Part shown: positions 16,643-28,184 of the stretch, piece after piece
Layout of the letters: every line of letters starts with the position of its first letter
Position numbering within the stretch: position 1 is the first letter of the stretch
Origin: an uncultured Solirubrobacterales bacterium
GTDB lineage: Bacteria; Actinomycetota; Thermoleophilia; Solirubrobacterales; 70-9
NCBI GenBank assembly: GCA_963749605.1
Contig: CAVVNN010000003.1
Location: forward strand, 85,579 to 149,578
Length of the DNA stretch: 64,000 nt
Direction of reading: 5' to 3'
The notes under the pieces: generated by a model
Told to the model about the DNA's origin: nothing
The model's database searches: none
What the model saw: only the letters and a program-made list of their open reading frames with translations
Made by a program: the position numbers and the translations under genes

Positions 16643-17398
16643 TCAGGACGCTGAATGCAATAGGCCACCGTCGATCGGGATCACGGTGCCGGTGACGTAG
16701 GCGGCGCGCTCGGAGCAGAGGAAGGCGACGAGGTCGCCGTACTCCTCGGGGCGGCCCAGGCGCCCGGCCGGCACTTCGCTTCGCGCCGCCGCCTCGGCGG
16801 CCTCGATCGAACCGGCGTTTTCGGCGAGCCGCTCGGTGGCGAAACGCCCGGTGGCGACGGTGTTGACGGTGACCCCGTCGGCGGCGACCTCGCGCGAGAG
16901 CGTCTTGAGGAAGCCGACCGCCGCCATCCGGTGCGAGTTGGAGAGGTTGAGCCCCGGGATCGGCTCGCGCGTCGAGCTGGAGCCGACGTTGACGATCCGC
17001 CCCCAGCCGCGCTCGCGCATCCCCGGCACAACGGCGCCGGCGAGGATGCGCGGCGCCAGGACCAGCGAGCGGTAGGCCCGCTCCCACTCCTCCAGCTCGT
17101 GGTCGAGGGCGCCGCCCAACGGCGGGCCGCCGGTGTTGGCGACGAGGACGTCGAGCGGCCCGATCGCCGCCTCGACCTCACCCGGCAGCTCCGCCAGCCG
17201 GTCGAGGTCGGCCGCGTCGGCGACGAAGGCGCTCGCCTCGCCGTCGATAGCAGCGACCGCCTCCTCGAGCCGCTCACGCGAGCGGCTGGCGATCGCAACC
17301 CGGGCGCCTTCCCGCGCCAGGGCCGCGGCGATCGCCTCTCCGATCCCGCGACTGGCGCCCATCACCAGGGCGACGCGCCCCTCCAGCCCTAGATCCAC
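16643..17398 (-). CDS. Short-chain dehydrogenase/reductase (SDR) family oxidoreductase
   Basis: 251 aa from GTG 17396-17398 (VDLGLEGRVALVMGASRGIGEAIA, a TGxxxGxG-type motif). The longer track ORF reaching 17758 looks like a GC artefact. Confidence 0.8.
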   Translation of the reverse strand: MDLGLEGRVALVMGASRGIGEAIAAALAREGARVAIASRSRERLEEAVAAIDGEASAFVADAADLDRLAELPGEVEAAIGPLDVLVANTGGPPLGGALDHELEEWERAYRSLVLAPRILAGAVVPGMRERGWGRIVNVGSSSTREPIPGLNLSNSHRMAAVGFLKTLSREVAADGVTVNTVATGRFATERLAENAGSIEAAEAAARSEVPAGRLGRPEEYGDLVAFLCSERAAYVTGTVIPIDGGLLHSAS

Positions 17399-17751
17399 GT
17401 CGCCCCCGCGCCGGGCACCCGCGCACACAAAGCGGCGAACAGCCCCACGGCGACCAGGGCGCCGAGCCAGTGCAGGCCGAAGACGACCGCAATCGCGCTG
17501 ACCACTCCCGCCAGCACCGCCCACACCAGCGTCGGCCCCACCTCCAGCCCCACGACCCGAGCGGTGACCCAGGCGCAGAGCAGCCAGGCGGCCGGCCCCG
17601 CCAGCCACCCCCAGTCGACGAAGAACCCGTGCGAGAAGACGACCGCCAGCACCACGGACAGCAGCGCCACCGCAACCAGCTGCACCAGCGCCACCCGCCA
17701 GAAGATCGCCGACCTCACGGCCGGCATTCTCCCACCTACCTGCATAATCAA
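17389..17751 (-). CDS. Small hydrophobic membrane protein (hypothetical)
   Basis: 120-aa ORF with 3-4 clear TM segments. An alternative start lies at 17727. It overlaps the SDR start by 10 nt. Confidence 0.45.
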   Translation of the reverse strand: MIMQVGGRMPAVRSAIFWRVALVQLVAVALLSVVLAVVFSHGFFVDWGWLAGPAAWLLCAWVTARVVGLEVGPTLVWAVLAGVVSAIAVVFGLHWLGALVAVGLFAALCARVPGAGATWI

Positions 17752-17760
17752 TCGCCACCC

Positions 17761-17833
17761 GGGCGGTTAGCTCAGTTGGGAGAGCGCCTCCCTTACAAGG
17801 AGGAGGTCACTGGTTCGAGCCCAGTACCGCCCA
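17761..17833 (+). tRNA. tRNA-Val (anticodon TAC)
   Basis: Cloverleaf read by hand: acceptor GGGCGGT/ACCGCCC, D arm GCTC..GAGC, anticodon stem CCTCC/GGAGG with loop CTTACAA, T arm with GGTTCGAGCC. CCA is not encoded. Confidence 0.9.
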
Positions 17834-19644
17834 TTCCACTGCTTCGCTCCAGCACGAACAGTTGGAAGTAGGGGATCTGGGAGCTTTTCTGGTAGAGGAT
17901 CGGCAGCTCGTCTTTGCGGTCGGGGTCGGCCGCTGGCTCGTGCAGACCCTGGATCGTCAGACCGGCGTCGAGGAACAGTCGAGCCCAGGTCTCGGTAGTG
18001 CGATGGAAGGTCACGATGGACTCGATGACCGTGTCGCCGAGGGAATTCTCGCGCGACTTGGATACGGGCCCCTCGTCGAAATACTCCTCCAGCACGAACT
18101 CGCGATAGCGCCAGCGACCTTCGATGCGCTCCTTTCGCCAGCCCCCGCGATCCTTGATCGGGTGGGGCAGCGAGATCACCACCCGCCCCTTCGACGATGC
18201 CAGGCGAGCGATATCGGCGATCGTCGGCTGCGGATCCTCGAGATGGTCGAGGACGTTGAGGCAGAGAACGTCGTCGAACGGCCCTTCCAGCTCAATCGTC
18301 GGCACGTCCATGAGCGTGATGCGCTCGGACACGCCGGCCTCCTTTGCGCGCCGCTCCGCCAGCGCGAGCATCTTCTCTCTGGTGTCGATGGCAACCACGT
18401 CCGAGCCGGCCAGGGCGAGCCGGATGCTTTCGTGGCCGCTGCCACAGCCGATGTCGAGGACGCGGCGCCCCGGCGAGCCGGGTACGAGATGGCGCATGAG
18501 GGGATCGAGTACCAAGGCGTTCTGGGATGCTGTCTCGCGCTCCTCGGCGTAGATGTCGGCAAGAGTTGCGTCGCCGGTTGCGGCCCCGCCGCTCAACTCT
18601 CCGCAGGCTGGGCAGTCGGGCTCGCGCACGAAATCCTCGCGGTGCAGCTCGTAGGTCGTCGAATCGATGAGCAGTCGCTGGCCGATCGTCTGAACCGGCT
18701 GACCGAGTAGCCGGCGGATCACCTCGTTTGCCTGCACCGAGGCGACGAGTACGTTCAGGGGCCCCGTAGCTGGGCGCCTGATGCCGGCGGTTGAGGTTCT
18801 CCGGCGCGCTCCCCTCCCGATCCTGCAGGTCCGCCGTGGCGCGGATGCACGCGTAGCAGGCCGACTCCCCGGGAACGACCATCGGGCCGACGACGCCAAA
18901 GGCCTCGATGTAGCCGGCATTCGAGTAGGCGAAGCCGTGACGCAGTGCGGCGTCGTTCATCCAAAGGTGGACGTCGGGCGGGGAGTCGGCTGAAAGTACG
19001 ACCACGTCGCACTCGGCGAAGTGCTCGTCGAGCAGCTCGACCCCGTGGAACGCCGACCGCACTGGCTTCAGGGTGACCTCACCGTTCAGAGCTCGCAGCC
19101 GCTCGGCCGCGACCTCGACCTTCGGCCGACCGACGGCGCCCTCGTCAAACAGCGTCTGGCGGGTGAGGTTCGACAGCTCCACGTCATCGCCGTCGGAGAA
19201 GACGATTGTTCCGACACCCGCTGCGACCAGGGTCGTGGCGAGATTCGTGCCAATCCCGCCGGTGCCGACGAGGCCGACGGTGGCGCCGGCCAGCATCTCC
19301 TGGGCCTCCGAGCCGTTGGCCCCGATCAGGTCGTAGTAGAGGAGGTGGCGGGCGTAGCGACTGGTCGAATCCAGGTCGTCAGTGGCCAGCACGCCCGCCT
19401 CGAGCAGCTCGCCGAGCAGTTGCCTTGCCTGATCCTTGTCGAGGTTTGCCAAGCGCACGGCGTGCGCGATCGCCTCGTCTCGGGTGCGGGGTACCGAGAG
19501 GTAGGCGAGAAGCTCTGGCAGGCCGGGCGGAGCGTCCTCTATTTTGACCGCGCGAGGGGGAAGGGCTCCGACGAGGACGTCGCCGTCTAGCTGGAGAACC
19601 GAGAGGTACTGCGGGACGACCAGCGTGTCACGGGAGGCGTTCAC
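17793..19644 (-). pseudogene. MccB-like ThiF/E1 adenylyltransferase fused to a class I SAM methyltransferase, interrupted by a 1-nt frameshift
   Basis: The 18292-19644 frame holds an about 90-aa N-terminal domain, then E1 motifs GLVGTGGIG, DGDDVELSNLTRQ and a first CxxC (CYAC). The 17793-18920 frame continues the E1 fold (PLNVLVASVQANEVIRRLLG, second CxxC CPAC), then VLDIGCGSG and the rest of a methyltransferase. The frames switch in the GGGGCCCC run at 18758-18765. Confidence 0.8.
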
Positions 19645-19666
19645 GTTCGAGCGCTGGACGCCTCGC

Positions 19667-21496
19667 CTAATCCTCGGGTGCGCTGGAGGGTTCGCCGTCT
19701 TCGGCGGATTTAGGCGGCCGGATGAGCTTGAGGTTCAGCTCTCGCAGCCGCTCCGGGGGGATCGGCGCCGGCGCGGCCATCATCACGTCCTGGGCGCGCT
19801 GGTTCATCGGGAAGGCGATCACCTCGCGGATGTTGGGCTCGTCGGCGAGCAGCATCACGATCCGGTCGATGCCGGGGGCGACGCCGCCGTGCGGTGGCGC
19901 CCCGACGCGAAAGGCACGCCCGAGGGCGCCGAAGCGCTCGTCGACCTCCTGCTTGGAGTAGCCGGCGATTTCGAAGGCGCGGTAGAGGACGTCGGGGCGG
20001 TGGTTCCGGATCGCGCCGGAGGAGAGCTCGTAGCCGTTGCAGACGATGTCGTACTGGAAGGCCCTGACCTCGAGCGGGTCCGTCGTTTCGAGCGTGTCGA
20101 GGCCGCCCTGCGGCATCGAGAACGGGTTGTGGCTGAACCCGACCTCCCCGGTCTCCTCGTCCAGCTCATACATCGGGAAGTCGACGACCCAGCAGAACCG
20201 GTAGGCGCCCTGCTCGACCAAGCCGAGCGCCTGGCCGACGTGGTCGCGCATCGCGCCGAGCAGGCTGCGCGCCTTCTGCAGGCGGGCGTCGGAGATCATC
20301 AGCAGGGCGTCGCCCTCCTCGGCGCCGAGCGCGGCGATCGCCGCCTGCTGGACCTCGGGCGCCAGGTGGCGAGCCAGCGGCCCGCGGAGGGAGTTGCCGG
20401 GCTCGACGAAGAACCAGGCCAGGCCACCGGCGCCCAGCTCGCGCGCGAACTCGTCGAAGCGGTCCATGTCGGCCCGGGAGAGCTCGGGTTTGGGTATGCG
20501 CATGCCGGAGACGTGGCCGGCGCTGAGCGCGCGCACCCCCGAGTCGGCGAAGACGTCGGCGAGGTCGCGCATCTCGATCGGGATGCGCAGGTCCGGCTTG
20601 TCGGACCCGTAGCGCTCCATCGCCTCCTCGTAGGGGATGCGCGGAAAGGGCAGCGGCGTCGTCTCCCACTCCGGCCTCAGATCGGCGAACAGCCCGTGCA
20701 GCACGTCCTCGACCACCTCGAACACGTCCTCCTGCTCGACGAAGCTCATCTCGATATCGAGTTGGTAGAACTCGCCCGGAGAGCGGTCCGCGCGGGCGTC
20801 CTCGTCGCGGTAGCAGGGGGCGATCTGGAAGTAGCGGTCGAAGCCGGCGACCATCAGCAGCTGCTTGTACTGCTGCGGCGCCTGCGGCAGCGCGTAGAAC
20901 TTGCCCGGATGCACCCGGGAGGGAACGAGGTAGTCGCGAGCTCCCTCCGGGCTCGATGCGGTCAGCGTCGGGGTCTGCAGCTCGAGGAAGCCGTGGCGCT
21001 GCATCCGCTCGCGCAGGCTGGCGACGATCTTCGACCGCAGGACGACGTTCTCGTGCATGCGCGAGCGGCGCAGGTCCAGAAAGCGATATTGGAGGCGGCT
21101 TTCCTCCGGCGCGTCCTCCTCGGGGAAGACCGTGAACGGCAGCGGCTCCGCCGCGCCGAGCACCTCGGCCTGCCGGGCCTCGACCTCGACCTCTCCGGTG
21201 TCGATCGCGGGGTTGACCGTCTCGGGCGAGCGCGCGAGGACCGAGCCCTCGATTCGCAGCACGGTCTCCTTGGGAACGTGGGCGAGGTCGAGGTCGAGCT
21301 CGGAGCGGACCAGGATCTGCGTGATGCCGTAGTGATCGCGGAGGTCGAGGAACAGCACGCCGCCCAGGTCGCGGCGATTGTGGATCCAGCCGGTGAGGGC
21401 GACGTCCTCGCCGACGCGATCGGCGTTCAGCTCCCCGCACGTATGCGTGCGCATGCTCGTGGAAAGTTGCGCTTGGGGGCGGGGCTGCGGTGTCAT
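19667..21496 (-). CDS. aspS: Aspartate--tRNA ligase (bacterial type)
   Basis: FLDLRDHYGITQ (OB), QAPQQYKQLLM, GAD insertion domain and GGVAPGIDRIVMLL (motif 3). ATG 21454 (MRTHTCGEL) is an alternative start. The gene is intact. Confidence 0.95.
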   Translation of the reverse strand: MTPQPRPQAQLSTSMRTHTCGELNADRVGEDVALTGWIHNRRDLGGVLFLDLRDHYGITQILVRSELDLDLAHVPKETVLRIEGSVLARSPETVNPAIDTGEVEVEARQAEVLGAAEPLPFTVFPEEDAPEESRLQYRFLDLRRSRMHENVVLRSKIVASLRERMQRHGFLELQTPTLTASSPEGARDYLVPSRVHPGKFYALPQAPQQYKQLLMVAGFDRYFQIAPCYRDEDARADRSPGEFYQLDIEMSFVEQEDVFEVVEDVLHGLFADLRPEWETTPLPFPRIPYEEAMERYGSDKPDLRIPIEMRDLADVFADSGVRALSAGHVSGMRIPKPELSRADMDRFDEFARELGAGGLAWFFVEPGNSLRGPLARHLAPEVQQAAIAALGAEEGDALLMISDARLQKARSLLGAMRDHVGQALGLVEQGAYRFCWVVDFPMYELDEETGEVGFSHNPFSMPQGGLDTLETTDPLEVRAFQYDIVCNGYELSSGAIRNHRPDVLYRAFEIAGYSKQEVDERFGALGRAFRVGAPPHGGVAPGIDRIVMLLADEPNIREVIAFPMNQRAQDVMMAAPAPIPPERLRELNLKLIRPPKSAEDGEPSSAPED

Positions 21497-21649
21497 GTGA
21501 TTAGTGGCGCTGCGATCTGTGCGAGGCCGAGGGGCTTTGCAACGTACCTCAAAGATGCGGGTACGCGGCAGGCGCGCGGCGATGCTCGACTTGGGCTCGA
21601 CCCCGCTGTTACAGTCGCGTTGCAGTTAGTCAACCAATCGAGGTAGAAA

Positions 21650-21709
21650 GTGCTAAAAGTCACGAAGGTTCGCGGAATCCGCGGCGTTTCCAGCCTGGTT
21701 CGCAACTGA
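21650..21709 (+). CDS. Unannotated 19-codon ORF ending in Asn, candidate MccA-type precursor peptide
   Basis: In-frame TAG at 21644-21646, GAGG at 21640-21643, GTG at 21650. Peptide M(V)LKVTKVRGIRGVSSLVRN, TGA at 21707-21709. It ends 17 nt before the CmoA-like start. It is too short for the 60-aa ORF track. Confidence 0.5.
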   Translation: MLKVTKVRGIRGVSSLVRN

Positions 21710-21726
21710 GCAATCCCCTCGACCGC

Positions 21727-22422
21727 GTGCTGGCCGGCGATCGCTGGGAGTTCGACGATTCCGTCACTGCGGTATTCGAGAATATGTTGGAACGGTCGAT
21801 TCCCCAGTACGGGGAGATGCGTTCGGCGGTCGGCAGCCTCGCTGCTCACTTTGCAGCCGGCCGGCCGGCCGGCTGCGTAGTCGACCTCGGCTGCTCGCGC
21901 GGTGAGGCGATTGCAACGCTCGTGGACAGATTCGATGAAGACGCGACTTTCACCGGTGTGGAGGCCAGCCCATCCATGCTCGAGGCTGCCCGGAAGCGTT
22001 TCGCTCCCCACGACAACGTCGAGATCCTGGATCTCGACCTGCGATCCGAATATCCGACTGGGACCGCAAACGTGACGCTCGCCGTTCTGACCGTGCAGTT
22101 CATCCCAATCGAGTACCGACAGCAGCTCATCCAGCAGGTCTACGATCACACCGCGCGTGGCGGGGCGTTCATTCTGGTCGAGAAGGTCCTCGGCTCCACC
22201 GCGGAGCTCGACCGCATGATGGTGGCCTTCCACCTCGAGATGAAGCGTCGCAAGGGCTACTCGCAGGAGGAGATCGACCGCAAGCGTCTCTCCCTGGAGG
22301 GCGTTTTGGTACCAGTCACCGCGAAGTGGAACGTCGAAATGCTCGAAGCAGCGGGATTTCAGGAAATCGACTGCTTCTGGCGTTGGATGAACTTCGCGGG
22401 CTGGGTCGCAGTCCGCCATTGA
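21727..22422 (+). CDS. cmoA: Carboxy-S-adenosyl-L-methionine synthase (CmoA/MccS family)
   Basis: 231 aa, colinear with my recollection of E. coli CmoA: WEFDDSVTAVFENMLERSIPQY (cf. [22 protein letters not shown]), DLGCS, LTVQF, KRRKGYSQEEIDRKRLSLEGV, CFWRWMNFAGWVAV. Confidence 0.8.
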   Translation: MLAGDRWEFDDSVTAVFENMLERSIPQYGEMRSAVGSLAAHFAAGRPAGCVVDLGCSRGEAIATLVDRFDEDATFTGVEASPSMLEAARKRFAPHDNVEILDLDLRSEYPTGTANVTLAVLTVQFIPIEYRQQLIQQVYDHTARGGAFILVEKVLGSTAELDRMMVAFHLEMKRRKGYSQEEIDRKRLSLEGVLVPVTAKWNVEMLEAAGFQEIDCFWRWMNFAGWVAVRH

Positions 22423-22438
22423 GGTCGCCGCTCGGGGC

Positions 22439-23285
22439 TCAGGGGGCGCTGGGGCGCAGCTCGGGGGTCCTGGTGCCGCCGCGGCGGCGCTCGGCCTCGG
22501 TTACCACGTCGAAGAAGACGTCGTTGCGGCCGCGCCGCAGCGGACGGGGGAAAAGGCGGCGCGCACGGCGGTGCGAGGCGGCGAGCGGCGCGGAAGCTCG
22601 CCTCGTGCGCGCCGCTCCAGCGGATGCCGAAGATCTCGCGCACCCGCGGCGGCAGCGTTCCCTTGATGATGTGGTTCTGGACCGCGATGTTGCCCCGGGC
22701 GGCGGCCGGCACCGGCTGGCGGAAGGCGACCAGCGGCGCCATCTCCAGCGCGTGCTCGGTCGCCTGCAGGTCGGGTGAGGCGAGCTTCCCGTCCCACCAG
22801 CCGCTGGAACTCGAGGTGGCTGGCCGGCACCTCGCTGCGCGGCAGCCCGAACAGCTCGCCGAAGCGCACGTAGTCCTGCCAGAGGTCCTCGCGCTCGCCC
22901 TCGCTCAGCGGCCGCACCATCGTCTCGTACATCGCCCGCCCGGAGTCGGCGATCACCGCCAGCGTCCACAGCATCAGCTCCGGGTCGAAGGCCGAGTAGG
23001 CGGCGCCGGCGGGGTGGGCGCCGGCCGCCTCGGGCAGCGTCCCCTCGACCGTCTCGTGCAGGCGGTGGACCTTGGCCAGCGCCTCGTCGGCCTCCTCGCG
23101 GCGTGCCGAGGAAGATCGTCTCCTGGATCTTCGCCGTGCGGGCGAGCCGCTCGAAGGGCCGGTCGCCGGAGCGGGTGCGAGAGCATCGTGCCGGTGTAGG
23201 TGAGCGGTTCCAGCGCCCCGATCAGCAGCGCCCGCTGGCCGTAGAGCAGGCCGACCGAGCGCTCGCCGTGGACGCGGCGCGCCAT
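22439..23285 (-). pseudogene. DUF2236 / MpaB-type oxygenase family gene broken by about 4 frameshifts
   Basis: A coherent protein can be followed only by switching frames at about 23168, 23097, 22803 and 22590: ...GQRALLIGALEPLTYTGTMLSHP / SGDRPFERLARTAKIQETIFLGT / EEADEALAKVHRLHETVEG...HLEFQRL / WDGKLASPDLQATEHALEMAPLVAF...FGIRW / LAASHRRARRLFPRPLRRGRNDVFFDVV. Confidence 0.75.
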
Positions 23286-24912
23286 CGAGCGCCCCGGGGG
23301 GAAGTAGTGGTCTTCGCTCTCCGAGGTCGGTCACGCCAGCCGCGGATGCTACTCCGCGTAGGTGGCGCTGACCGCCATCTGCCAGAGCCGGTACGGGCGC
23401 GCGGCGCTTCCTGCAGCTCGTGAGCGGCGAAGATCTCGTCGAGGTCCTCGCGGGTGAGCGTCTCGCGCTCGAGCGCGTTCGCGGCGAGGTCGTCGAGGCA
23501 CTCGCGGTTCCCGCCCAGCAGCGCGCGGGCGCGGCGGTAGGCCTCGCGCGCCAGCGTCATCGCCGCCACGTCGACGTCGCGCCGGGTGCGGTCGGAGAGC
23601 GCGTAGTCGCCGGTCGGCAGCGCGATCGGCGGCGGGCCGTCGGCGTCGAGCGCGACGCCCATCCCGAACTCGCCGACCATCTGCTTGCAGACCGAGTGCA
23701 CCCGGGCCAGGTCGTCGACCGCGCCCGGAGTAGGACTCGCCGAACACCTCCTCCTCGGCGGCGCGCCCGCCCAGCAGGGTGACGATCTCGTCGAGCAGCT
23801 CGTCGCGCGACTTCAGGTAGGTGTCCTCCTGCGGCGAGTGGCCGACGAAGCCGAGCGCCGGCCCGCGCGGGACGATGCTGAGGATCTCCGGCGGGTCGAG
23901 GCCGAGCAGCCGCCGGCAGAGGGCGTGCCCCGCCTCGTGGTAGGCGACGATCCGCCGCTCCTTCGAGCTCAGTCGCCGCGCCTGCTGGGAGCCGACCGAC
24001 TGGCGCAGCAGCGCCTCGTCGAGGTCCTCGCGGGCGATCGCGTCGCGCTCCGCCCGCCCGGCGATGATCGCCGCCTCGTTGAGCGCGTTGGCGAGCTGGG
24101 CGCCGGTCATCCCGGTCGTCTTGCGGGCGACGTCGGTGAGGTCGAGGTCGGGGCCGAGCGGCTTGCCCTTGGCGTGCGCGCGCAGGATCGCCTCGCGGCC
24201 GTCGCGGTCCGGCGGCGCGACCAGCACCTGGCGGTCGAAGCGCCCGGGTCGCAACAGCGCGCTGGTCGAGCTTGTCGACGTAGTTGGAGGCGGCGATCAC
24301 GATCACCGTCCCCGGGTCGCGCTCGAAGCCGTCGAGCTCGACCAGCAGCTGGTTCAGCGCCTGCTCGCGCTCGCTGGTGCCACCGTCGCCGCTGCCGCCG
24401 CTGCGCGCTCCCCCGACCGCGTCGAGCTCGTCGATGAAGATCACCGCGCGCCCGGACTTGCGCGCCTCCTTGAACAGCCGCCTGATCCGGGCGGCGCCCC
24501 TGCCCACGAACATCTCGACGAAGCTCGAGCCGGAGGCCGAGAAGAAGTCGACGCCGGCCTGCGCGGCGACGGCTCGCGCCAGCATCGTCTTGCCCGTCCC
24601 CGGGGGGCCGTAGAGAAGCACGCCGCGCGGCGGCTGCGCCCCGAGCGCCGCGAAGCGGTCGGGGTCGCGCAGCCACTCGGCCACGTCCATCAGCTCGTCC
24701 TTGGCTGCGTCGACCCCCTGCACCTCCTCCCACAGCACCGGCTTGGTCTGGCTCGCCTTCACCGTCTCCGGCTTGGTCGTGCCCATCGTCCCCCGCAGCA
24801 GTTTGAGGAAGACGAGCAGCAGCCCGCACATGAAGAAGACCCCGAAAACGGGGTACCAGTCGAAGAAGAAGCTCTGGATTTCGCTTGCCGCGAGTGCCTG
24901 CGTCAGGTGCAT
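23222..24912 (-). pseudogene. FtsH-like AAA+ zinc metalloprotease paralogue (single N-terminal TM) broken by 2 frameshifts; 3' boundary uncertain
   Basis: Frame 1: TM helix, Walker A GPPGTGKT, Walker B IFIDELD. Frame 2, from about 24260: [18 protein letters not shown] zinc motif. Frame 3, from about 23722: [21 protein letters not shown]. Each junction looks like one extra C before GCG. Confidence 0.8.
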
Positions 24913-27875: not shown

Positions 27876-27949
<74 letters not shown>

Positions 27950-28184
27950 CTCCACGCAAAGCCATTTCCAAAGCGGAGTTCAGACTTTCTTTCGCTTCCA
28001 GAGGTTCTCTCCAAATTCTCATGGGTACCACATTTGGGTACCAACCTGAGGCGAAATTGCACGCACCCTCGCTTGGTTCTAGCCATGAGCTGCGCGTCCA
28101 GCCCCGGCCGGTTTCCCAAGGGCTGCGGGATAGGGCGTCGGGATTGCAAAGCCCAGACAAACAGCGCTTGACCTTGGTTCGGCT

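What the first reader, a model, noticed from the sequence alone, without database searches (positions are those of the whole stretch)
17793..19644. MccB-like E1 adenylyltransferase-methyltransferase fusion split by one extra base in a GGGGCCCC run
Seen: the ThiF/E1 fold itself spans the frame break. The first Zn-binding CxxC (CYAC) and GLVGTGGIG are in one frame. PLNVLVASVQANEVIRRLLG and the second CxxC (CPAC) are in the other. This is therefore one gene, not two. Removing one base from 18758-18765 restores ...APSYGPLNVLV.... An about 90-aa N-terminal domain precedes the Rossmann fold, at the position where MccB carries its peptide-clamp (RRE-like) domain. A complete class I SAM methyltransferase (VLDIGCGSG) follows.

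Inference: this is an MccB(+MTase)-type enzyme. It is either inactivated in this strain or mis-assembled at a homopolymer.
Basis: partly seen in the sequence, partly recalled or inferred. Interest (0 to 1): 0.65.

Follow-up and report, generated by a model that had tools for sequence, protein, structure and literature searches.

The report
Microcin C-type antibiotic gene, frameshift likely artefact
The split gene is the core enzyme of a small, already described type of "Trojan-horse" peptide-nucleotide antibiotic cluster in an uncultured soil actinobacterium, and the one-base break that splits it is most likely an error in this sequence record, not a dead gene.

Summary
On the minus strand, 19644->17793 is one gene split by one extra base in GGGGCCCC (18758-18765). 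Removing one base gives a 616-aa protein with an N-terminal peptide-clamp domain, a ThiF/E1 domain that runs across the break, and a class I methyltransferase.

The protein is a full-length homologue of intact ~600-aa fusions (72% identity in soil MAGs; 45% to the Bacillus amyloliquefaciens protein whose locus has the published four-gene mcc content). E. coli MccB is its best solved relative by sequence and by predicted fold.

The rest of the cluster is present:
- a 19-aa precursor ending in Asn (mccA, 21650-21709)
- a CmoA-like carboxy-SAM synthase (mccS, 21727-22422)
- aspS (19667-21496), encoding the antibiotic's target

This actinobacterial cluster type, aspS included, was already described bioinformatically (PMC8323819).

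The frameshift is probably not biological. Contigs from five soil or plant metagenome runs, from four studies, span the site. All lack the extra base and none carries it. The same record carries at least 13 other private single-base insertions at 22.6-25 kb. These break two genes that are intact in three close relatives.

Verdict: a new member of a known kind, of modest interest.

The parts
17793..19644 (-). mccB: fused peptide nucleotidyltransferase and carboxymethyltransferase. Reads as 616 aa once one base of the GGGGCCCC run is removed. GTG start at 19644, stop at 17793-17795.
18758..18765 (.). GGGGCCCC run carrying the one extra base (frame break between Gly294 and Pro295). Public contigs read GGGGCCC here.
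   Evidence: 'left out 1' at 18762 in runs X1, X3, X7, X9 and X10. No contig has the extra base.
19369..19644 (-). N-terminal peptide-clamp (RRE-like) domain, residues 1-92. Four short strands followed by three helices.
   Evidence: Model secondary structure. Foldseek aligns about 355 columns to full-length E. coli MccB. The PaaA sequence match covers residues 12-192.
18588..19368 (-). ThiF/E1-like nucleotidyltransferase domain, residues 93-352. Contains GxGGxG and both Zn CxxC pairs (C263/C266 and C344/C347). Spans the frame break.
   Evidence: Pfam PF00899, residues 98-345, E 5.9e-46. C263, C266 and C344 are invariant and C347 is conserved in at least 90% of 64 homologues.
17844..18521 (-). 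C-terminal class I SAM-methyltransferase-fold domain, residues ~375-600. Homologous to the carboxymethyltransferase domain of Bacillus-type MccB.
   Evidence: Pfam Methyltransf_31/11/25/12/23. Full-length alignment to P0017 and P0019. Role taken from PMC8323819 and PMC12250964.
17793..17843 (-). Non-conserved C-terminal tail plus stop codon. Read antisense through the 3' part of tRNA-Val. Disordered in the model (pLDDT below 50 for residues 605-616).
17761..17833 (+). tRNA-Val(TAC). The mccB-containing segment abuts its 3' end.
19667..21496 (-). aspS, a bacterial-type aspartyl-tRNA synthetase and the target of microcin C-type antibiotics. Lies 22 nt upstream of mccB. Looks native to this lineage.
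   Evidence: NCBIfam NF001750, 774 bits against a cutoff of 443. 96% identical and syntenic in relatives L018-L020, which lack mcc genes. GC3 0.93.
21650..21709 (+). mccA: 19-aa precursor (M)LKVTKVRGIRGVSSLVRN, GTG start, GAGG 9 nt upstream. It is the only short Asn-terminated ORF in 16.5-24 kb.
   Evidence: Conserved 19-22-aa Asn-terminated ORFs lie in all 10 related clusters examined, including Bacillus and Paenibacillus.
21727..22422 (+). mccS: CmoA-like carboxy-SAM synthase, 231 aa.
   Evidence: TIGR00740, E 8e-46 over 14-238 of 239 positions, below the equivalog cutoff. 66-71% identical to the genes in L001-L007.
21511..22446 (.). 936-bp segment (mccA + mccS) absent from the close relative L018. 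Flanked by a 7-bp direct repeat, CAGCGCC.
17834..19645 (.). 1.8-kb segment (mccB) absent from close relatives. It lies between the aspS stop region and the tRNA-Val 3' end.

Best explanation
The locus is the core of a Bacillus-amyloliquefaciens-type microcin C-like (peptidyl-nucleotide "Trojan horse") biosynthetic cluster in an uncultured soil actinobacterium.

**Shown**
- 19644->17793 (-) encodes one MccB-type protein: an N-terminal peptide clamp, an E1/ThiF nucleotidyltransferase domain with a Cys4 zinc site, and a C-terminal methyltransferase-fold domain.
- mccA (a 19-aa precursor ending in Asn), mccS (a CmoA-like gene) and aspS lie beside it.

**Inferred from the characterised E. coli and B. 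amyloliquefaciens systems**
1. The clamp binds the precursor MLKVTKVRGIRGVSSLVRN.
2. The E1 domain uses two NTPs (probably CTP). It converts the C-terminal Asn through a succinimide into an isoAsn-phosphoramidate-linked nucleotide.
3. The C-terminal domain transfers a carboxymethyl group from carboxy-SAM, made by MccS, onto the cytosine.
4. A target cell takes up and trims the product, releasing a non-hydrolysable aspartyl-nucleotide mimic that blocks AspRS.
5. The adjacent aspS may protect the producer.

**The frameshift**
The single extra base in GGGGCCCC that splits mccB is most likely a sequencing or assembly error of this record. In the natural population the gene is intact.
For: **Identity of the gene**
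- Pfam ThiF matches residues 98-345 across the break, followed by methyltransferase domains.
- More than 70 intact ~600-aa fusion homologues exist, the best at 72% identity.
- The repaired junction, QAPSYGPLN, is the family's conserved motif.
- E. coli MccB is the best PDB match by sequence (E 2e-42) and by fold (top 24 hits, about 355 aligned columns, target TM up to 0.87).

**Identity of the cluster**
- mccA is the only Asn-terminated short ORF nearby. It belongs to a conserved family present in all 10 related clusters examined.
- mccS is CmoA-like.
- AspRS sits beside MccB in 8 of 9 other actinobacterial loci.
- The literature describes exactly this architecture and chemistry (PMC8323819; PMC12250964).

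**Frameshift as artefact**
- Contigs spanning the site come from five runs, five samples and four studies. All lack one base at 18762 and are otherwise 99-100% identical. None supports the extra base.
- The record has at least 13 further private single-base insertions between 22586 and 24954. They are seen against Logan contigs and also against the independent relative L018.
- Those insertions break an FtsH-like gene and an MpaB-like gene that are intact in L018, L019 and L020. Deleting them restores most of the MpaB ORF.
- In that stretch all the events are insertions, and most are not in homopolymers. That pattern fits error, not decay.
- mccB has no other lesion. Six of 10 population SNPs are synonymous in the repaired frame.
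Against: - I had no reads of the record itself. The public contigs come from other samples of a near-identical population, so a private, real mutation in the sequenced genome cannot be excluded.
- The cluster is dispensable and does decay. Three close relatives lack all mcc genes. An isolate, Nocardiopsis sp. NPDC006832 (L011), has an internally deleted mccB.
- The mccB site is a homopolymer junction, whereas most of the other private insertions are not. The error process may therefore differ.
- No export pump (MccC) is present in or near the cluster.
- Nucleotide specificity, carboxymethylation and antibiotic activity are inferred by homology only.
- aspS here looks like the native housekeeping gene, not a dedicated second copy. 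Its immunity role is unproven.
Confidence: 0.78

Rival explanations
1. The frameshift is real in the sequenced genome. mccB is a recent pseudogene, and the strain no longer makes the antibiotic.
For: - The record shows the extra base.
- The cluster is accessory in this species. It is absent from L018, L019 and L020.
- Decay is seen elsewhere in the family. L011 mccB has lost about 164 residues.
- G/C homopolymer junctions are natural slippage sites.
Against: - Five of five independent contig sets lack the extra base.
- The same record has at least 13 other private one-base insertions that break conserved neighbouring genes.
- Neither half of mccB has any other lesion, and all family-invariant residues are kept.
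Confidence: 0.17
2. The break is a programmed or phase-variable switch. Ribosomal frameshifting or slippage at G4C4 would give regulated expression of a short E1-only product and a full-length product.
For: Only that the break lies in a short G4C4 run.
Against: - All homologues, and all near-identical environmental contigs, encode the junction in frame.
- The break falls inside the E1 fold, between the two zinc CxxC pairs. A frame-A product would lack half the catalytic domain.
- A 4+4 run is too short for typical phase variation.
Confidence: 0.02
3. The gene is not an MccB. It would be a ThiF/MoeB sulfur-carrier activator, or a TOMM (YcaO-partner) leader-peptide-binding protein, as several homologues are annotated.
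For: - NCBIfam gives sub-threshold MoeB/ThiF matches, and a TIGR03882 domain match of 47.9 bits against a cutoff of 36.9.
- Some database names read 'TOMM precursor leader peptide-binding protein'.
Against: - MoeB and ThiF scores are far below their cutoffs: 120 against 449, and 114 against 275.
- MccB is much the best structural and sequence match.
- An Asn-terminated precursor gene and MccS are adjacent.
- No ThiS/MoaD, rhodanese or YcaO gene was seen among the neighbours that were scanned.
Confidence: 0.02

Closest known systems
B. amyloliquefaciens DSM7 McC-like system (MccB with C-terminal carboxymethyltransferase domain, MccS, 19-aa MccA; Serebryakova et al. 2016, as summarised in PMC12250964 and PMC8323819)
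   Same: - Same three-domain MccB: 44-45% identity over the full length to a B. amyloliquefaciens protein (P0019).
- A CmoA-like MccS.
- A 19-aa precursor that starts MLK and ends in Asn. The Bacillus locus L004 encodes MLKIRKVKIVRAQNGHYTN.
   Different: - No MFS export pump (MccC) in the window.
- aspS is embedded in the cluster.
- Gene order differs: the window has divergent mccA-mccS and aspS-mccB, while Bacillus has mccB-mccS-mccA-mccC.
- The host is a high-GC actinobacterium.
- The product has not been characterised.
Actinobacterial mcc-like clusters with an AspRS gene (type 19 in Fig. 6 of Travin, Severinov and Dubiley 2021, PMC8323819)
   Same: The gene content is mccA, mccB with the C-terminal domain, mccS and an aspartyl-tRNA synthetase gene. 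The same adjacency is seen here in Nocardiopsis, Dactylosporangium and 'Pseudonocardiaceae' MAG loci.
   Different: - In the window, aspS looks like the native chromosomal gene. It is syntenic and 96% identical in mcc-less relatives, with host-like GC3. It does not look like an added copy.
- The YqcI/YcgG-family gene and the extra methyltransferase found in the closest relatives (L001-L007) are missing here.
E. coli MccB (PDB 3H5A, 3H5N, 3H9G, 6OM4)
   Same: - N-terminal peptide clamp plus E1 domain, with a Cys4 zinc site.
- Best solved match by sequence (E 2e-42) and by fold (target TM 0.79-0.87 over the whole chain).
   Different: - Only 27-29% identity.
- E. coli MccB has no C-terminal methyltransferase domain.
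- It adenylates a heptapeptide.
- Its cluster uses MccC, MccD, MccE and MccF.
PaaA (pantocin A) and ThiF/MoeB
   Same: All share the E1 fold. PaaA also has an N-terminal RRE-like domain, and its sequence match covers query residues 12-192.
   Different: - Much weaker matches: PaaA 5e-18, ThiF 2e-24, MoeB 2e-21.
- ThiF and MoeB align only over about 255 columns and lack the clamp.
- Their substrates and chemistry are different.

Membership tests
MccB-type peptide nucleotidyltransferase (microcin C family) | ThiF/E1-like nucleotide-binding domain with GxGGxG and a Cys4 (2 x CxxC) zinc site | tested here: met
   - PF00899 matches residues 98-345, E 5.9e-46.
- GTGGIG is present.
- C263, C266 and C344 are invariant and C347 is conserved in at least 90% of 64 homologues.
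- MccB chains are the best PDB match.
MccB-type peptide nucleotidyltransferase (microcin C family) | N-terminal peptide-clamp / RRE domain preceding the E1 domain | tested here: met
   - In the AF2 model (pLDDT 91.8), residues 1-92 form strands followed by three helices.
- Foldseek aligns about 355 columns to full-length E. coli MccB, with target TM 0.79-0.87.
- ThiF and MoeB align over only about 255 columns.
MccB-type peptide nucleotidyltransferase (microcin C family) | Cognate short precursor gene (mccA) ending in Asn within the cluster | tested here: met
   - 21650-21709 (+) encodes a 19-aa peptide. It is the only Asn-terminated short ORF in 16.5-24 kb.
- Homologous peptides occur in all 10 related clusters examined.
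MccB-type peptide nucleotidyltransferase (microcin C family) | Uninterrupted reading frame | tested here: inconclusive
   - Broken in this record.
- Intact in contigs from five public runs.
- The record's own reads were not available.
MccB-type peptide nucleotidyltransferase (microcin C family) | Catalyses N-P bond formation between the C-terminal Asn of MccA and a nucleotide | not testable with these tools
   Needs an enzyme assay.
Cytidylating / carboxymethylating (B. amyloliquefaciens-type) mcc cluster | C-terminal methyltransferase-fold domain fused to MccB | tested here: met
   - Pfam methyltransferase families match residues 380-504.
- The full-length alignment to the Bacillus proteins runs through residue ~600.
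Cytidylating / carboxymethylating (B. amyloliquefaciens-type) mcc cluster | MccS (CmoA-like carboxy-SAM synthase) encoded in the cluster | tested here: met
   - 21727-22422 matches TIGR00740 at E 8e-46 over its full length.
- It is 29% identical to the gene in the B. amyloliquefaciens locus.
Cytidylating / carboxymethylating (B. amyloliquefaciens-type) mcc cluster | Dedicated export pump MccC | tested here: not met
   - tblastn with Bacillus MccC finds nothing in the window at E 1e-8.
- Pfam of the neighbouring genes shows no transporter.
- The review calls mccABC the minimal set, but none of the actinobacterial relatives examined showed an MccC either.
Target-copy self-resistance gene (as abmK, agnB2) | Gene for the antibiotic's target enzyme located inside the biosynthetic cluster | tested here: met
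   - aspS lies between mccA-mccS and mccB.
- AspRS is adjacent to MccB in 8 of 9 other actinobacterial loci.
Target-copy self-resistance gene (as abmK, agnB2) | It is an additional copy, distinct from the housekeeping gene | tested here: inconclusive
   - Only 64 kb is available, so a second aspS cannot be sought.
- The evidence leans against a second copy. aspS is at the same locus and 96% identical in three mcc-less relatives.
- Its GC3 of 0.93 is host-like.
Target-copy self-resistance gene (as abmK, agnB2) | Enzyme insensitive to the processed antibiotic | not testable with these tools
   The shared RADRSPGEFYQLD motif-2 variant is not specific to mcc clusters.
ThiF/MoeB sulfur-carrier adenylyltransferases | Score above the family cutoff, with a ThiS/MoaD partner | tested here: not met
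   - NCBIfam scores are 120 against 449 (MoeB) and 114 against 275 (ThiF).
- No such partner was found among the neighbours that were scanned.

The most novel reading that the evidence does not exclude
The mcc genes flank, on both sides and as two precise insertions or deletions, what looks like the producer's own native aspS. That AspRS belongs to a widespread subtype with motif 2 RADRSPGEFYQLD in place of RADRQPEFTQLD. The same subtype is carried inside the mcc clusters of distant actinobacteria such as Nocardiopsis and Dactylosporangium.

The most novel reading not excluded has two parts:
1. This AspRS subtype is intrinsically insensitive to the processed carboxymethyl-cytidylate warhead.
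2. The cluster was assembled around its target gene in this lineage, which later supplied the "immunity aspS" that travels with the cluster elsewhere.
Probability: 0.15. Interest if true: 0.55.

Novelty: new member of a known kind. Interest (0 to 1): 0.3.

Why it matters
- **Annotation.** The gene should be annotated as one mccB. It should not be called as two ORFs, as ThiF/MoeB, or as a "TOMM leader-binding protein". The break should be treated as suspect, because this record contains many frame-breaking single-base insertions.
- **Biology.** The locus adds an uncultured soil actinobacterial member to the peptidyl-cytidylate branch of microcin C-like antibiotics. It has a new 19-aa carrier peptide and no dedicated exporter.
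- **The target gene.** The target, aspS, sits in the middle of the cluster. That makes it a convenient system for testing whether AspRS itself provides immunity. The literature has so far only proposed this.

Tried and rejected
1. **AspRS "resistance signature".** All nine cluster-linked AspRS share RADRSPGEFYQLD, ALPQAPQQ and other changes relative to the T. thermophilus and M. smegmatis enzymes. All 120 best database homologues also carry the variant loop (118 match RADRSPGEF exactly), including Thermoleophilia and Bryobacteraceae MAG proteins. It is therefore a natural subtype, not an mcc-specific mark.
2. **Integrative island at tRNA-Val.** No second copy of the tRNA 3' end exists in the window, and no tRNA lies next to mccB in the relatives. 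The junctions show only 5-7-bp microhomologies. The direction of the event, gain or loss, is unresolved.
3. **Source record.** An exact look-up of the window's AspRS found nothing. The look-up for P0244 also failed. The cluster-member look-up gave no organism names.
4. **Expression.** No RNA runs hold the locus.
5. **Promoter and terminator scan of 21400-22600.** Nothing above chance.
6. **The crude GC3 frame plot** was too noisy to map frameshifts. Comparison with contigs and with L018 replaced it.
7. **Literature.** The primary B. amyloliquefaciens paper (PMC5152938) is not held, and the peptide sequence is not in the searchable text. The match of L004's peptide to the published MccA rests on its 19-aa length as given in PMC12250964, and on my memory of the sequence.
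Full report
**1. The observation**

The window is GC-rich (66%) and the gene lies on the minus strand.
- ORF 18292..19644 (-) carries the N-terminal region, GLVGTGGIG and CYAC.
- ORF 17793..18920 (-) carries PLNVLVASVQANEVIRRLLG, CPAC and VLDIGCGSG.
- The two frames meet at GGGGCCCC, 18758-18765. Removing one C of the plus strand gives ...QAPSYGPLNVLV... and a 616-aa protein.
- On that protein, Pfam ThiF matches residues 98-345 as one stretch across the break (E 5.9e-46). Five general SAM-methyltransferase families match residues 380-504.

**2. What the gene is**

*Homologues.* A search of the large protein collection finds more than 70 intact proteins of about 600 aa with the same ThiF plus methyltransferase architecture.
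- The best are 69-72% identical and come from soil metagenomes and MAGs.
- Named ones include Bacillus amyloliquefaciens and B. subtilis (44-45% identity), Streptomyces, Nocardiopsis and Mycobacteroides abscessus.
- In alignments of 11 and of 64 sequences, the repaired junction falls in a highly conserved motif. G294 and N297 are invariant. Q289, A290, S292, P295 and L296 are conserved in at least 90%.

*Solved structures.* E. coli MccB is the best match by sequence (E 2e-42). ThiF scores 2e-24, MoeB 2e-21 and PaaA 5e-18.

*Predicted fold.* An AlphaFold2 model built on the 64-sequence alignment has mean pLDDT 91.8. Only the linker at 354-357 and the tail at 605-616 are disordered.
- Its 24 best Foldseek hits in the PDB are all E. 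coli MccB chains. They align over about 355 columns, with target TM 0.79-0.87. That span covers the N-terminal peptide clamp as well as the E1 domain.
- PaaA comes next. ThiF and MoeB align only over about 255 columns.

*Other families.* NCBIfam MoeB and ThiF scores are far below their cutoffs. The "TOMM leader peptide-binding" and "cyclodehydratase" names on some homologues come from a domain-level match, and no YcaO gene was seen in the neighbours I scanned.

**3. The rest of the system**

- **mccA.** Between 16.5 and 24 kb there is exactly one short ORF ending in Asn: 21650-21709 (+). It has a GTG start preceded by GAGG and encodes (M)LKVTKVRGIRGVSSLVRN.
- **mccS.** Seventeen bases downstream, 21727-22422 (+) encodes a 231-aa CmoA-like protein. 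It matches TIGR00740 at E 8e-46 over its full length, below the equivalog cutoff, as expected for a paralogue.
- **aspS.** Immediately upstream of mccB (22-nt gap), 19667-21496 (-) is a bona fide bacterial aspartyl-tRNA synthetase (NF001750, 774 bits against a cutoff of 443).

Related loci were fetched through the homologues and compared by tblastn.
- MccS accompanies MccB in every full-length locus.
- AspRS is adjacent to MccB in 8 of 9 other actinobacterial loci. These are MAGs labelled Pseudonocardiaceae, two JGI soil contigs, Dactylosporangium and two Nocardiopsis.
- The Bacillus and Paenibacillus loci instead carry an MFS pump.
- Every cluster has a 19-22-aa Asn-terminated ORF of the same family, for example:
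  - MLKITKVRKVRGVSSLVRN (L005)
  - MLKIRKVKIVRAQNGHYTN (B. amyloliquefaciens, L004)
  - MRRISMTPVRKVKGSTTVVAN (Nocardiopsis)

**4. How it most likely works**

This mechanism is inferred from the characterised systems. The sources are PMC12250964 and PMC8323819.
1. MccB's clamp holds the precursor.
2. The E1 domain consumes two NTPs. It converts the C-terminal Asn, through a succinimide, into isoAsn joined by an N-P bond to a nucleotide.
3. MccB enzymes that carry the C-terminal methyltransferase-like domain cytidylate. They then carboxymethylate the cytosine, using carboxy-SAM made by MccS.
4. After uptake and proteolysis in a target cell, the aspartyl-nucleotide mimic inhibits AspRS.

Shown here are the domains, the fold, the conserved residues, the precursor and the partner genes. 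Nucleotide choice, carboxymethylation and activity are inferred. No exporter is present.

**5. Is the frameshift real?**

*Public data at the site.* Near-identical sequence exists in about 20 public soil, plant and freshwater metagenome runs. Logan contigs that span 18762 were found in five runs (X1, X3, X7, X9, X10) from five samples and four studies.
- All five lack one base at 18762 and are otherwise 99-100% identical. In X9, X10 and X1 there are no other differences over 211-288 bp.
- No contig carries the extra base.
- The gap placement in the C run gives GGGGCCC, which reads SYGPLN.

*Other private insertions in the record.* The same contigs lack single bases at 22800, 23103, 23178, 23316, 23377, 23381, 23385, 23397 (2 bases), 23723 and 24263. 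An independent relative (L018, 96% nucleotide identity) shows the same set and adds 22586, 24914 and 24954.
- In that 2.4-kb stretch every event is an extra base in the window.
- Most are not in homopolymers.
- They split an FtsH-like AAA+/M41 gene into three frames and shatter an MpaB-like gene.
- Both genes are intact (518 aa and 298 aa) in L018, L019 and L020.
- Deleting the extra bases restores most of the MpaB reading frame.

*State of mccB itself.* It has no other lesion. Of 10 population SNPs, 6 are synonymous third-position changes in the repaired frame, including 4 of the 7 downstream of the break.

*Conclusion.* The break is most likely an error of this record (about 0.8). A private real mutation remains possible (about 0.17), because I had no reads of the record itself. 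Real decay does occur in this family, as in L011's internally deleted mccB.

**6. Genomic setting**

L018, L019 and L020 have AspRS at least 90% identical to the window's. They share the window's gene order:
FAA hydrolase - deacetylase - MBL - FtsH-like - MpaB - aspS - tRNA-Val - small ORF - SDR - lysS - prmC - lgt.
None of the three has any mcc gene.

blastn against L018 gives three collinear blocks at 95.5-96.3% identity. They are interrupted by exactly two window-specific segments:
- 21511-22446 (mccA + mccS, 936 bp), flanked by a 7-bp repeat, CAGCGCC.
- 17834-19645 (mccB), wedged between the aspS stop region and the 3' end of tRNA-Val.

The mccB ORF has lost the family's usual stop. It reads 14 residues further, antisense into the tRNA.

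Composition separates aspS from the mcc genes.
- GC3 is 0.93 for aspS and 0.95 for lysS and the FAA hydrolase gene.
- GC3 is 0.82-0.85 for mccB and 0.78 for mccS.
- In relatives L001, L002, L003 and L007, aspS has the same GC3 as the mcc genes.

So aspS here looks native, and the mcc genes are accessory in this species. Whether they were gained around aspS, or lost twice from the relatives, is unresolved.

**7. aspS as an immunity gene**

The 2021 review already notes that "several BGCs from Actinobacteria include" an aspartyl-tRNA synthetase gene that may provide resistance.

I looked for a signature. All cluster-linked AspRS share RADRSPGEFYQLD in the motif-2 loop, plus other changes, relative to the T. 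thermophilus and M. smegmatis enzymes. All 120 best database homologues carry the variant loop as well (118 match RADRSPGEF exactly). They include stand-alone genes from MAGs labelled Solirubrobacteraceae, Thermoleophilaceae and Bryobacteraceae.

It is therefore a natural AspRS subtype, not a mark of mcc clusters. It remains possible that this subtype is intrinsically insensitive, and that this is why it travels with the cluster in Nocardiopsis and Dactylosporangium. That idea is a hypothesis only.

**8. Comparison with known systems, and novelty**

This is a member of the B. amyloliquefaciens-type branch of microcin C-like clusters, the branch that makes peptidyl-carboxymethyl-cytidylates. 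It belongs to the actinobacterial, AspRS-containing variant already catalogued bioinformatically (PMC8323819).

It differs in four ways:
- it has no exporter;
- it lacks the YqcI/YcgG-family gene and the extra methyltransferase gene of its nearest relatives;
- aspS appears to be the native gene;
- its carrier peptide is new.

No product of any actinobacterial cluster of this type has been characterised, as far as the papers I could read show.

**Verdict:** a new member of a known kind. The eye-catching frameshift is probably an artefact. Interest is modest (0.3).

Noticed in passing
window 23222-24912 (-): An FtsH-like gene (AAA+ ATPase plus peptidase M41, single N-terminal TM segment) is split into three frames by extra bases at about 23723 and 24262. 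It is an intact 518-aa gene in relatives L018-L020, and public contigs lack these bases.
   Followed up: yes
window 22447-23334 (-): An MpaB/Lcp_cat-family oxygenase gene is broken by at least nine private extra bases (22586, 22800, 23102, 23181, 23316, 23377, 23381, 23385, 23403 x2). Deleting eight of the sites (not 22586) restores most of the ORF. The record is error-laden in 22.6-25 kb.
   Followed up: yes
window 17793-17833: The mccB stop codon (TAA, 17793-17795) lies antisense in the anticodon loop of tRNA-Val(TAC). The gene and the tRNA overlap convergently by 41 nt.
   Followed up: partly
L018 11852-14059: In the close relative L018, the slot occupied by mccB in the window holds a different element of about 2.1 kb (an HTH_17 protein plus a 248-aa ORF). 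It is integrated into tRNA-Val, leaving a 10-nt remnant of the old tRNA 3' end (TGGGCGGTAC) beside aspS and a hybrid tRNA. The tRNA-Val 3' end is therefore an insertion hotspot in this species.
   Followed up: partly
window 27950-~46000: Homology to L018 stops exactly at the end of tRNA-Asp (27876-27950), and GC drops from about 72% to about 62%. The region encodes defence-type genes:
- a 924-aa PHP plus OLD/AbiEii-like ATPase
- an AAA_14/DUF4143 ATPase
- DUF5131
- a DprA/SLOG-like protein
- a 1187-aa N6-methyltransferase with a Type ISP C-terminal domain (PglX/MmeI-like)

This is probably a defence island at tRNA-Asp.
   Followed up: partly
L005 4071-5859; L009 7684-9419; L011 10001-11277: Other records of the family also show breaks:
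- mccB of MAG L005 (2.5x coverage) changes frame near residue 198.
- aspS of the Dactylosporangium MAG L009 changes frame near residue 494.
- mccB of the isolate Nocardiopsis sp. NPDC006832 (L011) lacks about residues 228-391, which looks like real decay.
   Followed up: partly
L001 7196-7798, L002 6437-7189, L003 13667-14338, L005, L007, L008: A YqcI/YcgG-family gene sits directly upstream of mccS in six related actinobacterial clusters and is absent from the window. L002, L003, L005 and L007 also carry an extra ~215-aa methyltransferase, and L003 carries a carbamoyltransferase (MccY-like). These suggest further warhead decorations in relatives.
   Followed up: no
window 19667-21496 and P0121-P0240: A widespread bacterial AspRS subtype has a one-residue insertion and substitutions in the motif-2 loop (RADRSPGEFYQLD against the canonical RADRQPEFTQLD), plus ALPQAPQ(Q/M) in place of ALPQSPQL. 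It is found in MAGs labelled Thermoleophilia, Bryobacteraceae and Pseudonocardiaceae.
   Followed up: partly
window 16643-17758 (-): The 371-aa ORF is an SDR (251 aa in relatives) artificially extended upstream. A separate 109-aa gene (17392-17718, another frame) occupies that stretch in relatives.
   Followed up: partly
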